Shown here: positions 972 to 9,652 of the stretch, in pieces
How positions within the stretch are numbered: position 1 is the first letter of the stretch
Layout of the letters: every line of letters begins with the position of its first letter
Source: Promethearchaeota archaeon
GTDB taxonomy: Archaea; Asgardarchaeota; Odinarchaeia; Odinarchaeales; JBHLKK01
Reading direction: 5' to 3'
Length of the DNA: 9,652 nt
NCBI GenBank assembly: GCA_048939465.1
Contig: JBHLPL010000072.1
Span: 1-9,652, forward strand
Notes under the pieces: generated by a model
The model's database searches: none
What the model was told of the DNA's origin: nothing
The model's input: only the letters and a program-made list of their open reading frames with translations
Made by a program: the position numbers and the translations under genes

Positions 972-1218
972 GGTATTACTCCCCATTCAGCAACGGGAAA
1001 AGGTCAAGGCAAGAACCAGCTGCAGCACACACCAACGTGTTTTTGATTACTATTCGCTGGTTGGAATTGGTTTAAGTCCCTATCTCATTTTCTGTTCTTC
1101 TGATAATTGCGTTCGAGCGATCTTCGATTCCGAGGGGACCAAAAATGAAGAGGAAAAATAGGGGAGGAGAAAGGAAGTGTTCTTTTGCTGTTTTATTTAT
1201 GATTTTAATAGTTTTCTG

Positions 1219-1355
1219 GTGAACTACTCCATCCTTTTGGACGAAGCTTCCTGCTTCATCCGTTCCCCAACGGGACACGTCTTACAGGCTCTACGGGCAG
1301 TTCCTGCCCTGAAACCTTATTCTCGCGAACTGGTGAGTGTTACCTCAACTCAATT
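1219..1355 (-). ncRNA. Putative TnpB reRNA (omegaRNA) scaffold; the guide would continue into the flank at about 1218-1199
   Basis: Perfect hairpin GGGCAG-GAA-CTGCCC (1309-1295) and hairpin CCGTT-GGGG-AACGG. The segment GATGAAGCAGGAAGC leads into the right-end hairpin, and its TGAA (1258-1255) can pair with the terminal TTCA as a pseudoknot. One frame reads GQELPVEPV, which resembles tnpB C-terminal tails as recalled. The 5' end is estimated from the TATA box. Confidence 0.55.
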
Positions 1356-1379
1356 CTACATGTTTGTCGTGAGAGCGAG

Positions 1380-1387
1380 TATTTAAA
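1380..1387 (-). promoter_or_regulatory. TATA box (TTTAAATA) inside the IS left end
   Basis: Archaeal TATA consensus about 15 nt 3' of the left-end hairpin. TTAAAT is kept at the same offset in the second left-end copy (6213-6208). Confidence 0.5.
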
Positions 1388-1737
1388 CTCCTCGCAATTC
1401 ATCTCCACCCTTTCCGATGGAGTCTTCTTGCGGAGAGGAAGGTAAAGTTATTCCAAGAAGAATCATGAAACATATCGAGAATAGGCGATCGTTCCATCCC
1501 TCTTGTTTTAAGCATTTTCATGTTCAGCTAGTAATCACGGGAGAACTGAACCTTACCTAGGTCGGTTCGGCTATTTTGAAAATTGGGCGAATACTATTTT
1601 GAGAGGTCTCTTTTTCTTCCTTCTGCTCAAGGAAGAATTTAGGAAAAAAGCCTTATTTACAAGAAACAAGATAATAGGCGAGGCACTGTAGGCAAAATCT
1701 TTGTGGACGGGAGAGTTCTTGATAGAGGAGGAGGAAT

Positions 1738-6566: not shown

Positions 6567-8903
6567 CTAAAGCTGTCGACCACATCTTATGCAGAACCTT
6601 GCGCCTGCGGGGTTTATATGACCGCAGTAGGAGCATAAGACCTCAGAAGGCTGTACGTATTCAGGTGACTCAGCTTCTTCTCTCTCTGGTGCAATCTCTT
6701 CCGGTACGGCCTCTTCCTCATGAGCTGGTTCAAGTAAGGTTCTCCTAGGTTCGGGAACTGCGACTTCGGGCCGAGGTGACCTTGCCTTTAGAAATGCAGC
6801 TACTCCAATTACAGCAATCACTCCTATGCACGCAGCGGTAACTATGATAGTAGGATCCTGTTGACCGTCCCGAGGAAGCTGGGATCCCCAAATGCCATGT
6901 TGCGGTTCGGGTTCAGTGTATTTTCTCACAAAAACGTTGTCGAAGTACGAAATATCTGAGGCTTCATTTTCATAGTTTATTAGACCAGGTTCTCCACTTG
7001 AAAGACTTGTGTCAGCAATTGATTCATATTCTGTCCCATTTATCCAAAATCTAAGTTGTGTGTCATAAATCCTAAATTCTAACCTGTTCCACTGATCGTA
7101 CATGCCACCAGTAAAGGCGTGTTTAGTTAAGCAAGTCGGTGTGCCACTCACATGCTCAACTATTTCTGCATCTGGAGTAGGGTCAGGGACGGCTATTCGG
7201 ACATCATAGTAGTTTTCGGGGTTGGTATAACGTCCGATCAACCCATACATATCCCACTTATCAGCACCCCTTGCATTGCAGTAGATGCGAGCAATAATAC
7301 AATAATCCGTATAAGTTACATTTTGATAGACAAGAGCCCTATTGTCGATAAGAATCGGATCCAGCTTGCCTGAATATGTGCCATCATAAGAGTAATCTGT
7401 AGATGCTACAAGAGTTCCGTCAGATGTGCTCCAGTCTGCCGTGTCTCCATCTTCAAAATCATCAAACACTAAGAAAGTATTTCGACCGTTACTTGTTGTC
7501 GTTGCACCGCTGTTACCATAGTACATGAAGATTGATGCGCTAGTAGTGCTCAGATCATCTCTGATTTCAACCCAAAACACTCCATAGTCGGAGTCCACCT
7601 TTTCCTCAATCCAATAGTCGAGCTCTGTTATACCATCATCGTCTGTGAATCTGATGTCGCCGAAATCCGCTCTGCATTGAGAATCACAATAAGCATTCTC
7701 ACCGCTATCTGTTCCCGTACCATAATGAACGATTATTTCTACTTGATAGTTTGTTCCTGCACCGGGAGCAGGATTTATTGTATGACTTTTCCGGTGACTC
7801 CACCCGTTAAGCCAGTTAGATTCTTCGTTGCCCCAACTACCGTGAGTAGGTTCCGGATAAGTGTATTTTCTAACTCTGAAATCATCATCGAAGTATCCAA
7901 ATCCATCTGTCGCTGACGAACCGCTGCAGATGCTATTATGAAAACGTCCATAGCCTGTTCGTGTATGTGACAAATATTGTACGTGTTCTATGGTCTCATC
8001 AAATCCTCCTGAGAAGACCTCCAGTACAATCGAGGTCGAATCGATCCTTGTTCTCACATAATACCATGTGTCCCAAGAGAAATGGGCCCAGTCACCAGGG
8101 GTGTGTAAGCCTCCTTCCACCTTTTCCAGTATTATACGAAAGTGGGTGGAATTATAGCTCCCTTGTGTGCAGCTTAGCTTATTGTCGTTATCCTGAATCC
8201 AGACTTGCCATTGATGCGCATAGCCACCTATTGAGGTCCGATCATAATCAACATATAGCTCAAACTCGACGATTCTTTCTAGGGGCCAGCTGTCATCGGA
8301 CTCTCGATAGTTTGCAGCGCTGACTCCACTTCCCGCATCCTTCCAGCTTTCCATTCTCTGATTTTGCTCTGCCAAATGTACAGCACTTGCGTTATTATTA
8401 TCGAGTTGCCAGTTCCACTTACTTGCATCAAGAGAATTGTCATCGTAGGAATCGAAGAAAACAAACGTAGCATCTCCATTGCTTGTAGTACTTGCTGCAG
8501 GATTTCCATAGTAGGTATAGATCGTAGCATCAGAAGTACTGAGATCATCTGCGACTTCAACCCAAAACACAGCCTTATCAGAATCTGTCTTCTTCTCCAT
8601 CCAGTAGTCCAGTAACGTGATTCCATCGTTATCTGTGAATCGAATGTCTCCAAAATCCGTTTTGCATTTGCCACCGGAGAAGATATCAAATCCGCTATCC
8701 GTGCCGGACCCGTAGTGAACGACTATCTTCACCTGGTAGTTTGTACCCGCTCCGGAAGCAGAGCCGATCACATGGCTTTTGCGATAGCTCCAACCAACAA
8801 GCCAAGACTCCCCATCAGGAGAGGCGGAGACAATGGTCGGTACGAATGGAAAGAAGAACAGCATAACCAAAACAAAAGCTACGACTCGCTTTCTGCTCCC
8901 CAT
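6567..8903 (-). CDS. Membrane-anchored surface protein: signal peptide, two DUF2341 plus ConA/lectin-like modules, TM helix, Pro/Glu linker and C-terminal zinc ribbon
   Basis: The ORF is open from 8957. ATG 8903 is preferred (GGGAGAG upstream; MGSRKR, hydrophobic core, VSA cleavage-like site). WLxGWSxRKSHxI...DFGDIRFTDxDG...LDYWxE...FWV...YYGN occurs twice, 330 aa apart. The TM helix is IIVTAACIGVIAVIGVAAFL, followed by CSYCGHINPAGARFCIRCG. Confidence 0.9.
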   Translation of the reverse strand: MGSRKRVVAFVLVMLFFFPFVPTIVSASPDGESWLVGWSYRKSHVIGSASGAGTNYQVKIVVHYGSGTDSGFDIFSGGKCKTDFGDIRFTDNDGITLLDYWMEKKTDSDKAVFWVEVADDLSTSDATIYTYYGNPAASTTSNGDATFVFFDSYDDNSLDASKWNWQLDNNNASAVHLAEQNQRMESWKDAGSGVSAANYRESDDSWPLERIVEFELYVDYDRTSIGGYAHQWQVWIQDNDNKLSCTQGSYNSTHFRIILEKVEGGLHTPGDWAHFSWDTWYYVRTRIDSTSIVLEVFSGGFDETIEHVQYLSHTRTGYGRFHNSICSGSSATDGFGYFDDDFRVRKYTYPEPTHGSWGNEESNWLNGWSHRKSHTINPAPGAGTNYQVEIIVHYGTGTDSGENAYCDSQCRADFGDIRFTDDDGITELDYWIEEKVDSDYGVFWVEIRDDLSTTSASIFMYYGNSGATTTSNGRNTFLVFDDFEDGDTADWSTSDGTLVASTDYSYDGTYSGKLDPILIDNRALVYQNVTYTDYCIIARIYCNARGADKWDMYGLIGRYTNPENYYDVRIAVPDPTPDAEIVEHVSGTPTCLTKHAFTGGMYDQWNRLEFRIYDTQLRFWINGTEYESIADTSLSSGEPGLINYENEASDISYFDNVFVRKYTEPEPQHGIWGSQLPRDGQQDPTIIVTAACIGVIAVIGVAAFLKARSPRPEVAVPEPRRTLLEPAHEEEAVPEEIAPEREEAESPEYVQPSEVLCSYCGHINPAGARFCIRCGRQL
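6890..8804 (-). repeat. Intragenic tandem duplication of a module of about 330 aa (8804-7815 and 7814-about 6890)
   Basis: The first ~125 aa and the last VRKYTxPEPxHGxWG are conserved between modules, while the middles are unalignable by eye. Confidence 0.85.
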
Positions 8904-8937
8904 GGCACTCTCCCGTAAGGAATAGATCAGTACAGCC

Positions 8938-8966
8938 AAATAAAGATTACCTGTCAAAAATCTTTA
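8938..8966 (-). promoter_or_regulatory. 8-bp inverted repeat TAAAGATT-N10-AATCTTTA overlapping a TATA-like TTTATTT
   Basis: Perfect arms at 8941-8948 and 8959-8966. The TATA-like box at 8944-8938 is about 35 nt upstream of ATG 8903. Confidence 0.4.
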
Positions 8967-9004: not shown

Positions 9005-9652
9005 TTACTTCATGTATCTTCCGCATCTTATACAGTACTTCGCGCCAGCTGGATTCACATGACCGCAGTGAGAGCATAAAACATCAGAAGGCAGTAGACG
9101 CCCGGGTTCTTCAGCTTCTTCTCTTTCTGGTGTAATTTCTTCTGGCGCTCTCTCTTCTTCATGAGTTGGTTCGGATAAGGGTCTCCTGGGTTCGGGAACT
9201 GCCACTTCAGGCCGAGGTGACCTTGCCTTTAGAAATGCAGCAATTCCAATTGCGGTAAACGCTCCGATCCCGGCGACGGCGATTATGACGGTGAGATCCT
9301 GTCCACCATCCTGAGGAAGCTGAGAATCCCAACTGCCGTGTTGTGGTTCAGGTTCAGTGTATTTTCTTACGTAAACAACATCAAAATACGCTATATCCTC
9401 AGGTTCATCCTTATAATTTCTTAAGCCAATATAACCGCTAGTATGGGTACCATCTGTACCTGTTAAGTATTCTGCATCGTTTATCAAAAATCTAAAACGA
9501 GTCCCATCAAGCCTAAATTCAAGTTTGTTCCATTTACCGTACTTATCGCTATCTGAAAAAGCAGCATCTGCTAGATCGTTACCAACCCCCCCTGTTACTT
9601 CTCTTATTTTTATTCTTTGATTAGTCAGTGCCGCTTCATAGCGATTATCCAC
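9005..9652 (-). CDS. C-terminal part of a paralogous membrane-anchored lectin-like/zinc-ribbon surface protein (5' end beyond the window)
   Basis: The frame is open to the window edge. WNKLEFRLDGTRFRFLIND matches WNRLEFRIYDTQLRFWING of the neighbour. The last 120 aa are 87/120 identical to the neighbour, including the TM helix and CSHCGHVNPAGAKYCIRCG. Confidence 0.9.
   Translation of the reverse strand: MDNRYEAALTNQRIKIREVTGGVGNDLADAAFSDSDKYGKWNKLEFRLDGTRFRFLINDAEYLTGTDGTHTSGYIGLRNYKDEPEDIAYFDVVYVRKYTEPEPQHGSWDSQLPQDGGQDLTVIIAVAGIGAFTAIGIAAFLKARSPRPEVAVPEPRRPLSEPTHEEERAPEEITPEREEAEEPGRLLPSDVLCSHCGHVNPAGAKYCIRCGRYMK

What the first reader, a model, noticed from the sequence alone, without database searches (positions are those of the whole stretch)
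1199..1446. Minimal gene-less IS200/IS605 element that appears to be a self-contained promoter plus reRNA (TnpB guide RNA) unit
Seen in sequence (- strand): TTTAC, 19 nt, left-end hairpin, TTTAAATA, about 130 nt rich in hairpins, GAAG, right-end hairpin, TAGTTCAC. It totals 223 bp with no transposase or nuclease gene. Established knowledge: IS200/IS605 ends are subterminal hairpins bound by the Y1 transposase TnpA, and in IS608 the left cut is 19 nt from the hairpin. The guide-to-cleavage-site pairing rule predicts TCxC for a GAAG guide, and TCAC is observed. The tnpB 3' end and right end encode the reRNA, whose guide is the flanking DNA. Inference: the deletion removed the coding sequence but kept the promoter and scaffold. 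The element could be mobilised by TnpA in trans and could load a TnpB (or a nuclease-dead TnpB derivative) in trans with the guide CAGAAAACTATTAAAATCAT, directing it to the empty site or another locus. A T-rich stretch (about 1160-1138 on - strand) could end the transcript.
Basis: partly seen in the sequence, partly recalled or inferred. Interest (0 to 1): 0.85.

Follow-up and report, generated by a model that had tools for sequence, protein, structure and literature searches.

The report
Gene-less IS605 mini-transposon carrying guide RNA
This 223-base stretch is a protein-less mini-copy of an IS200/IS605 jumping gene in an Asgard archaeon that keeps both hairpin ends, a promoter and the complete guide-RNA scaffold of the TnpB nuclease; it is real and well preserved, but elements of this kind are already described.

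Summary
On the minus strand, window 1446-1219 reads TTTAC, 19 nt, a left hairpin, TTTAAATA, a structured interior, GAAG, a right hairpin and TAGTTCAC.

It belongs to a repeat family of about 17 copies in this 1.96-Mb Asgard archaeal genome. Similarity starts at TTTAY and stops exactly at TTCAC. The same end motifs flank the only tnpA-tnpB element (contig C105) and a tnpB-only element (C2).

- **Scaffold:** the last 95 nt are 87% identical to the 3' end of the C2 tnpB element and still encode its last 18 codons plus the stop. Their stems sit where the solved ISDra2 TnpB omegaRNA has its stems.
- **Promoter:** an archaeal TATA box lies 31 nt upstream of a 5' stem-loop found only in the gene-less copies. 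This spacing is kept (29-32 nt) in related elements of other Asgard families.
- **Untested steps:** transcription, TnpB loading and excision.

Gene-less elements (PATEs) carrying omegaRNAs, and standalone omegaRNAs that act in trans, are published. Earlier follow-ups in this scan found the same family on other contigs of this genome. I rate it a new member of a known kind, of modest interest.

The parts
1442..1446 (-). TTTAC, the target and left cleavage motif. It is flank, not element, and would be the TAM of the empty site.
   Evidence: Copies align from TTTAY onward and the DNA upstream is unrelated. In IS608, insertion is 3' of TTAC, which lies 19 nt 5' of the left hairpin (PMC3201880).
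1423..1441 (-). 19-nt left-end spacer ending in AAGA, the presumed left DNA guide for TnpA
   Evidence: Coordinates. Conserved in the family alignment. The 19-nt distance equals that of IS608.
1403..1422 (-). Left-end subterminal hairpin, the presumed TnpA binding site
   Evidence: The stem is kept, with changes, in the other copies.
1380..1387 (-). TTTAAATA, an archaeal-type TATA box and the promoter inherited from the left end
   Evidence: Conserved in most copies. It occupies the same place in the left end of the tnpB element on C2. It starts 31 nt before the 5' stem-loop, and relatives with a different intervening sequence keep 29-32 nt.
1327..1356 (-). 5' stem-loop SL1, specific to the gene-less copies. 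The transcript is predicted to start at about 1357-1355.
   Evidence: 96.4% of cells are paired over 35 sequences, with G-U variation. SL1 was not recovered in the best tnpB-locus alignments examined, where it is deleted or poorly paired.
1295..1309 (-). Stem GGGC(AGGAACU)GCCC. It corresponds to ISDra2 omegaRNA stem 1, and its GAA loop can pair with the 3' UUC as a pseudoknot.
   Evidence: Fully compensated in a tnpB-linked relative, L079. ISDra2 description in PMC10097598.
1247..1291 (-). Central part of the scaffold: the CUGU/GCAG helix (equivalent to ISDra2 stem 2) enclosing hairpin UCCC-GUUG-GGGA, followed by GAAG, the presumed right DNA guide for TnpA
   Evidence: The hairpin has changes on both sides of two pairs. 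CAGG lies at -35 to -32 from the element end, as in ISDra2.
1256..1312 (-). Fossil of the last 18 codons and stop of tnpB (SGQELPVEPVRRVPLGNG*)
   Evidence: Translation. The C2 TnpB ends SGQELPVGPVRHIPLGNG*.
1227..1246 (-). Right-end hairpin. It is the presumed TnpA site and also omegaRNA stem 4, with its tetraloop at -20 to -17.
   Evidence: Six of its eight pairs show changes on both sides across copies. The loop position equals that of ISDra2.
1219..1226 (-). TAGTTCAC, the right terminus. It ends in the cleavage motif TCAC, after which the scaffold ends.
   Evidence: Similarity stops here in every copy. GTTCAC is invariant in 34 of 35 aligned sequences.
1199..1218 (-). Flank that would be transcribed as the guide (CAGAAAACTATTAAAATCAT)
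   Evidence: Position relative to the right end. It is unique in the genome and has no second TAM-adjacent match.
1141..1158 (-). Two T5 tracts 61-78 nt past the element, candidate archaeal terminators
   Evidence: Read directly from the sequence. That they terminate transcription is inferred only.

Best explanation
Window 1441-1219 (minus strand) is a palindrome-associated transposable element (PATE), that is, a protein-less IS200/IS605 mini-transposon. It sits 3' of a TTTAC site in an Asgard archaeon.

**What it keeps:**
- both TnpA-type subterminal hairpins with their cleavage motifs
- the left-end TATA box that drives tnpB in full-length relatives
- a complete TnpB omegaRNA scaffold (the last ~91 nt)
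- an extra 5' stem-loop found only in the gene-less copies

**Likely mechanism (inferred):**
1. The Y1 transposase TnpA, encoded once in the assembly (C105), excises and inserts the top strand in trans.
2. Transcription starts about 26 nt past the TATA box, near 1356. It runs through the scaffold into the flank, giving an omegaRNA whose guide is CAGAAAAC...
3. The single cognate TnpB (C2) binds this RNA in trans. It cuts the vacated site (TTTAC + guide) after excision, so repair from a sister copy restores the element.

**Shown here:** repeat family and boundaries, homology of the ends and scaffold, and RNA structure conservation.

**Not shown:** transcription, TnpB binding, cleavage and mobility.
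For: - **Repeat family:** about 17 copies with sharp ends and unrelated flanks.
- **Parents in the same genome:** one Y1 tnpA, plus tnpB elements whose right ends finish with CAGGAAGC, a hairpin and TAGTTCAC.
- **Homology:** the C2 right end is 87% identical over 95 nt. The tnpB tail peptide is still readable in the element.
- **Covariance model:** the model of 35 gene-less copies scores 166.5 bits on this copy, second best of 21 hits in the genome. It hits 18 tnpB-linked 3' ends at 43-112 bits.
- **RNA structure:** 94.8% of cells are paired, against 46.5% or less in slid controls. Wobble pairs are frequent, and no shuffle out of 500 reaches the covariation score.
- **Match to ISDra2:** helix, loop and pseudoknot positions match the published ISDra2 omegaRNA.
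- **Nuclease:** the C2 TnpB matches ISDra2 TnpB at E = 1e-60, with the RuvC D/E/D residues and the zinc finger in place.
- **Co-occurrence:** the cognate TnpB is present in all 5 other genomes tested that carry this element.
- **Promoter:** TATA-to-stem-loop spacing is conserved.
Against: - No expression data could be obtained.
- No empty allele was found.
- Copies are old: median identity is 78% and the maximum 87%.
- Changes private to one copy mostly break pairs (31 break, 4 keep). Individual copies therefore seem to decay neutrally, and any one copy may be inactive.
- The right hairpin of this copy has two G-T pairs when read as DNA.
- Its left flank is TTAC, not the TTAT predicted by its AAGA guide.
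- Rfam gives no hit.
Confidence: 0.75

Rival explanations
1. It is a dead relic: a PATE that once transposed but is no longer transcribed, loaded on TnpB or mobile, with no present function.
For: - Family copies are only 64-87% identical.
- Private changes break stems at about the same rate as unpaired columns change.
- Several copies are visibly degraded, for example C63, C16 and C128.
- Only one intact cognate tnpB and one tnpA are in the assembly.
Against: - This copy has the second-best model score in the genome.
- Its TATA box, all stems and both termini are intact.
- The TnpA and TnpB reading frames are intact.
Confidence: 0.2
2. The element acts mainly as a mobile promoter or antisense source for neighbouring host genes. 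Its outward-reading transcript affects the convergent gene at 282-971, rather than serving as a guide RNA.
For: - The TATA box reads out through the right end into the flank.
- Elsewhere in the window, a truncated left end of a sister family lies about 100 nt upstream of a gene start on the same strand.
Against: - Neither the conserved 140-nt structured RNA nor its homology to tnpB 3' ends is needed for a promoter.
- Flanks of the copies are unrelated.
- I found no conserved relation to neighbouring genes, though this was not systematically tested.
Confidence: 0.04
3. It is a host-domesticated guide RNA that steers a TnpB or a nuclease-dead derivative to another genomic locus for regulation, as in TldR-type systems.
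For: Gene-less copies outnumber the cognate tnpB by about 17 to 1.
Against: - All 17 guides are unique to their own flank, with no second TAM-adjacent match.
- Flanking DNA finds no match in congeners, so no conserved guide could be shown.
- The cognate TnpB has intact catalytic residues and sits at different loci in the three congeners.
Confidence: 0.01

Closest known systems
PATEs of the ISGst (IS605-family) elements in Geobacillus stearothermophilus (Meers et al. 2023, PMC10055086)
   Same: Both are gene-less elements with left and right ends like those of the tnpB-bearing IS. They carry omegaRNAs that must use TnpB and TnpA encoded elsewhere. The same homing model applies.
   Different: The host is an archaeon (Asgard), so the promoter is a TATA box. 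This family has an added 5' stem-loop that was not recovered in the tnpB-linked loci examined. Nothing has been tested experimentally here.
Standalone omegaRNAs acting in trans with OMEGA effectors (Altae-Tran et al. 2021, as summarised in PMC10691335)
   Same: Both are mobilised omegaRNA loci without an effector or transposase, in genomes that also hold effector-bearing loci. Those were shown to work in trans.
   Different: The trans tests cited there were done in other, experimentally studied systems. Here trans action is only inferred.
ISDra2 TnpB-omegaRNA complex (PDB 8bf8, 8h1j, 8exa; PMC10097598)
   Same: The C2 TnpB matches it at E = 1e-60. The scaffold layout also agrees:
- a first stem whose loop GAA can pair with UUC at -5 to -3
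- a helix at -35 to -32
- a terminal hairpin with its tetraloop at -20 to -17
   Different: - The scaffold is about 91 nt instead of 116, with a shorter first loop and a shorter stem 3.
- The presumed TAM is TTTAY instead of TTGAT.
- The pseudoknot partner is not resolved by covariation.
IS608 of Helicobacter pylori (TnpA mechanism; PMC3201880)
   Same: - The left cleavage motif is 19 nt 5' of the left hairpin.
- Four-nt guides lie 5' of each hairpin.
- The ends are asymmetric and there is no target duplication.
   Different: The right cleavage motif TCAC starts 4 nt (and ends 8 nt) past the hairpin, rather than 10 nt. The motifs are TTAY and TCAC rather than TTAC and TCAA.
PATEs of Haloquadratum walsbyi (Dyall-Smith et al. 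2011; cited as ref. 40 in PMC10055086 and in earlier scan notes)
   Same: Both are archaeal gene-less IS200/IS605 derivatives. Both include roughly 52-bp forms made of the termini only, which this genome also has.
   Different: The hosts belong to different phyla.

Membership tests
IS200/IS605 PATE (gene-less derivative) | No transposase or nuclease gene inside the element | tested here: met
   The element is 223 bp. Only short chance ORFs overlap it. What is left of tnpB is its last 18 codons.
IS200/IS605 PATE (gene-less derivative) | Asymmetric ends with subterminal hairpins, no inverted repeats, no target duplication, and insertion 3' of a short conserved motif | tested here: met
   Hairpins lie at 1422-1403 and 1246-1227. 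Across copies the left flank is TTTAY and the right terminus is TTCAC, and the flanks are not duplicated.
IS200/IS605 PATE (gene-less derivative) | Ends related to those of tnpA- or tnpB-bearing elements in the same genome | tested here: met
   The C2 tnpB element shares the left-end architecture and 95 nt of the right end at 87% identity. The C105 tnpA-tnpB element shares the right terminus.
IS200/IS605 PATE (gene-less derivative) | Multiple copies at unrelated sites | tested here: met
   About 17 full copies in G000, and more in two congeners and three other Asgard families.
IS200/IS605 PATE (gene-less derivative) | Demonstrated mobility (empty site or excision product) | tested here: inconclusive
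   The flanks find no match in congeners. The empty-joint pattern and the control flank pattern are both absent from the metagenome collection.
TnpB omegaRNA (reRNA) | Encoded at the 3' end of tnpB plus the right end, with the scaffold ending at the element boundary | tested here: met
   The last 95 nt are homologous to that region of 13 or more Asgard tnpB loci, and all end at GTTCAC.
TnpB omegaRNA (reRNA) | Conserved secondary structure like that of solved omegaRNAs (stems 1-4 plus pseudoknot) | tested here: met
   The stems are supported (94.8% paired against 46.5% or less in slid controls). Their positions match the ISDra2 description. The pseudoknot itself is compatible but not resolved: 95.0% paired against 98.6% for the nested alternative.
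TnpB omegaRNA (reRNA) | Transcribed, with a guide of about 16-20 nt from the flank | not testable with these tools
Only the conserved TATA box and its spacing argue for transcription.
TnpB omegaRNA (reRNA) | Binds a TnpB and directs TAM-dependent DNA cleavage | not testable with these tools
   A cognate intact TnpB exists and co-occurs with the element in 5 of 5 genomes tested. There is no binding or cleavage test.
Rfam-curated RNA family | Match at the gathering score | tested here: not met
   No match at gathering score. Only chance-level hits with E > 1.

The most novel reading that the evidence does not exclude
The gene-less copies may be a self-standing guide-RNA gene lineage rather than mere deletion debris.
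- They have their own 5' stem-loop and a precisely spaced TATA box.
- They persist across at least three Asgard families, with different TnpA hairpin specificities.
- They outnumber the single cognate TnpB by about 17 to 1.

On this reading, one nuclease serves a dispersed library of trans-encoded guides, an intermediate state on the way to CRISPR-like arrays.
Probability: 0.25. Interest if true: 0.55.

Novelty: new member of a known kind. Interest (0 to 1): 0.3.

Why it matters
This is a clean, well-bounded archaeal example of a TnpB guide RNA separated from its nuclease gene, with a readable promoter and a compact scaffold of about 91 nt. It could be used to test trans-loading of TnpB and the homing model in Asgard archaea.

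It also shows that a 2-Mb Asgard genome carries about 80 such hairpin-ended elements, which matters for annotating its intergenic DNA. It does not reveal a new mechanism.

Tried and rejected
- **Rfam:** no family matched at gathering score or at permissive E-values.
- **Empty site in congeners:** only the element itself matches in same-genus genomes, and the flanks do not.
- **Empty site in metagenomes:** the exact empty-joint pattern gave 0 hits, but so did the control left-flank pattern. The test is therefore uninformative.
- **5' stem-loop in tnpB genes:** I searched tnpB reading frames for it. The profile matches tnpB loci only from position about 133 on, and in the three best tnpB-locus alignments the covariance model deletes or mispairs that stem. 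A simple-deletion origin from a C2-type parent is therefore rejected.
- **Second targets of the guides:** none found next to a TAM.
- **Fixed-locus (domesticated) TnpB:** the tnpB flanks are not syntenic in the three congeners.
- **Pseudoknot versus nested pairing of the 3' GUUC:** both fit and neither covaries.
- **Other kinds of repeat:** a CRISPR repeat, a tRNA-derived repeat or a bacterial-type terminator were considered and dropped because of the homology to tnpB right ends.

Full report
**1. Observation**

- TTTAC (1446-1442)
- a 19-nt spacer (1441-1423)
- a hairpin (1422-1403)
- TTTAAATA (1387-1380)
- a hairpin-rich interior
- GAAG (1250-1247)
- a second hairpin (1246-1227)
- TAGTTCAC (1226-1219)
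- two T5 tracts, 61-78 nt further on (1158-1154 and 1145-1141)

The element proper is 223 bp. As RNA the segment folds at -86.3 kcal/mol, against -62.9 for shuffles (z = -5.5). As DNA the excess is weaker (z = -2.3).

**2. It is a repeat with sharp ends**

The window lies on contig C141 of a 1.96-Mb assembly: 152 contigs, 43% G+C, 91% complete.

BLAST and profile searches of that genome find about 17 copies of 220-231 bp at 77-84% identity. In all of them, similarity starts at TTTAY and stops at GTTCAC, and the flanks are unrelated.

About 80 left-end-like sites exist in the genome. They fall into:
- this family
- three other gene-less families with the same left-end plan but different interiors
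- about 15 forms of 52 nt with a single hairpin

**3. Host and full-length relatives**

- **Transposase.** The genome has one Y1 transposase gene (C105:1108-1557, full Pfam match at 127 bits), followed by a tnpB.
- **tnpB-only element.** A second element at C2:25971-27281 carries a 383-aa TnpB.
- **Remnants.** tnpB fragments lie on C73, C55 and C70.
- **Shared ends.** Both intact elements end with CAGGAAGC, a hairpin and (T/C)AGTTCAC, and C2 sits 3' of TTTAT.
- **Nuclease.** The C2 TnpB matches ISDra2 TnpB (PDB 8bf8) at E = 1e-60. It keeps the RuvC Asp, Glu and Asp residues and the CxxC...CxxC zinc finger.
- **Host.** Its nearest relatives are in Hodarchaeota, Sifarchaeum and Borrarchaeum genomes, so the host is an Asgard archaeon. 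Earlier scan notes say the same. This makes TTTAAATA a candidate TATA box rather than a bacterial promoter.

**4. The 3' part is the tnpB guide-RNA scaffold**

- Element positions 134-228 are 87% identical to C2:27187-27281, which is the last 57 nt of the tnpB reading frame plus 37 nt to the right end.
- The window copy still translates to SGQELPVEPVRRVPLGNG*, against SGQELPVGPVRHIPLGNG* in C2.
- I aligned the RNA region of 35 gene-less copies from six genomes (A1). A structure of 37 pairs is 94.8% paired, against 46.5% or less when partners are slid. No shuffle out of 500 reaches the covariation score, and G-U alternations are frequent, which points to an RNA read from this strand.
- Most changes on both sides of a pair are in the right hairpin, which also serves TnpA. 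The UCCC/GGGA hairpin also has such changes.
- A tnpB-linked relative (L079) compensates the GGGC/GCCC stem completely.
- The covariance model R1 scores 166.5 bits on this copy, second best of 21 hits in the genome. It scores 43-112 bits on 18 tnpB 3' ends, 15 of them at 91-112 bits.

**5. Comparison with the solved ISDra2 omegaRNA**

The published description (PMC10097598) gives a 116-nt scaffold with these features:
- stem 1, whose loop pairs with -5 to -3 (the pseudoknot)
- a helix using -35 to -32
- stem 3
- a terminal hairpin with its tetraloop at -20 to -17

Counting back from 1219, this element has:
- UUC at -5 to -3, with GAA in the loop of GGGC(AGGAACU)GCCC
- CAGG at -35 to -32, pairing with CCUG
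- a shorter stem 3
- the right hairpin with its AAAA loop at -20 to -17

The whole functional scaffold is therefore retained in about 91 nt.

The 3' GUUC can pair either with the loop GAAC (95.0% paired) or with GAGC just downstream of that stem (98.6%). Neither pairing covaries, because GUUCAC is nearly invariant, so the pseudoknot is compatible but not shown.

**6. Promoter and the extra 5' module**

- TTTAAATA is conserved in most copies and occupies the same left-end position as in the tnpB element, where it must drive tnpB.
- It starts 31 nt before a stem-loop (1356-1327). This places the expected archaeal start site, about 26 nt from the box centre, at the foot of that stem. This follows from established knowledge of archaeal promoters and is an inference.
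- In related elements of other Asgard families, the hairpins and the sequence between the left end and the TATA box differ. The TATA-to-stem spacing is nevertheless 29-32 nt.
- The stem-loop was not recovered in tnpB loci. Profile matches there begin at position about 133, and in the three best alignments printed the model deletes or mispairs that stem. The element is therefore not a plain internal deletion of a C2-type parent.
- High-scoring copies that include the stem-loop occur in the own genus and in two further families. In all, 28 of 151 sampled Asgard genomes have a hit at E <= 1e-5.
- A close TnpB relative (67-83% identity) is present in all five other genomes tested that carry the element. 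It sits at different loci in the three congeners.

**7. TnpA rules**

IS608 cuts 3' of TTAC, 19 nt 5' of the left hairpin, and uses 4-nt guides located 5' of each hairpin (PMC3201880). Here the 19-nt distance is identical.

The guide-to-site mapping below is my recollection of IS608, not something I tested.
- The right guide GAAG predicts TCxC, and TCAC is found.
- The left guide AAGA predicts TTxT. Most copies do sit after TTAT, but this copy and C39 sit after TTAC.

**8. Is this copy alive?**

- Copies are old: RNA-region identity is 64-87%, median 78%.
- Changes private to one copy mostly break pairs (31 break, 4 keep) and are about as frequent in stems as in loops. Structure therefore seems to be maintained in the lineage that transposes, not in each resident copy.
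- This copy is among the best preserved. Its right hairpin has two G-U (G-T as DNA) pairs.
- All 17 guides are unique to their own flank and have no second TAM-adjacent match. This fits plain homing and gives no support for targeting another locus.

**9. What is known**

- Meers et al. 2023 state that PATEs "often encode" omegaRNAs that must be acted on in trans by TnpB encoded elsewhere.
- Altae-Tran et al. 2023 summarise that standalone, mobilised omegaRNAs exist and were shown to work in trans.
- Earlier follow-ups in this scan reached the same reading for the same family on other contigs of this genome.

**10. Verdict**

New here are the Asgard host, the TATA-driven layout and the 5' stem-loop specific to the gene-less copies. 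Interest is modest.

Noticed in passing
window 6272-6205 (minus strand): A truncated left end of a sister gene-less family: TTTAT, a hairpin and GCTTAAAT. It ends after about 85 nt and lies about 100 nt upstream of the start (6107) of the RACo-type reductive activator gene on the same strand. The transposon remnant may supply that gene's promoter.
   Followed up: partly
G000 C105:993-1044 (locus L034/L019): A 52-nt mini-element made of the 19-nt left spacer, one hairpin and TAGTTTAC. It sits directly before the left end of the only tnpA-tnpB element. Its own TTTAC terminus looks like the target site that the IS used. About 15 such single-hairpin forms are in the genome.
   Followed up: partly
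G000, e.g. C39:18554, C24:2882, C138:15400 (family B); C66:3543, C38:1589 (family C); C127:4101, C40:2054 (family D): Three more gene-less families share the left-end plan and the TATA box but have other structured interiors of about 305-370 bp. These interiors are probably scaffolds for other TnpB clades. In total there are about 80 left-end-like sites in 1.96 Mb.
   Followed up: partly
alignment A1 (35 copies): Singleton substitutions in stems break pairing 31 times and keep it 4 times. Substitutions shared between copies keep pairing. Structure is therefore selected in the transposing lineage, not in resident copies.
   Followed up: yes
loci L055-L065 (Borrarchaeum tnpB 3' ends): Between the conserved TnpB C-terminal motif and the first scaffold stem lies a spacer of variable length (12-60 nt), rich in AUC/AUCAUC repeats. 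The tnpB tail and the 5' edge of the guide RNA are therefore loosely coupled.
   Followed up: no
window 6567-8957 and 9005-9652 (minus strand): Two neighbouring large genes both end in a C-terminal zinc-ribbon domain. One also has DUF2341 repeats and the other a weak match to 3-keto-disaccharide hydrolase. They may be surface or secreted proteins with a shared anchor-like module.
   Followed up: no
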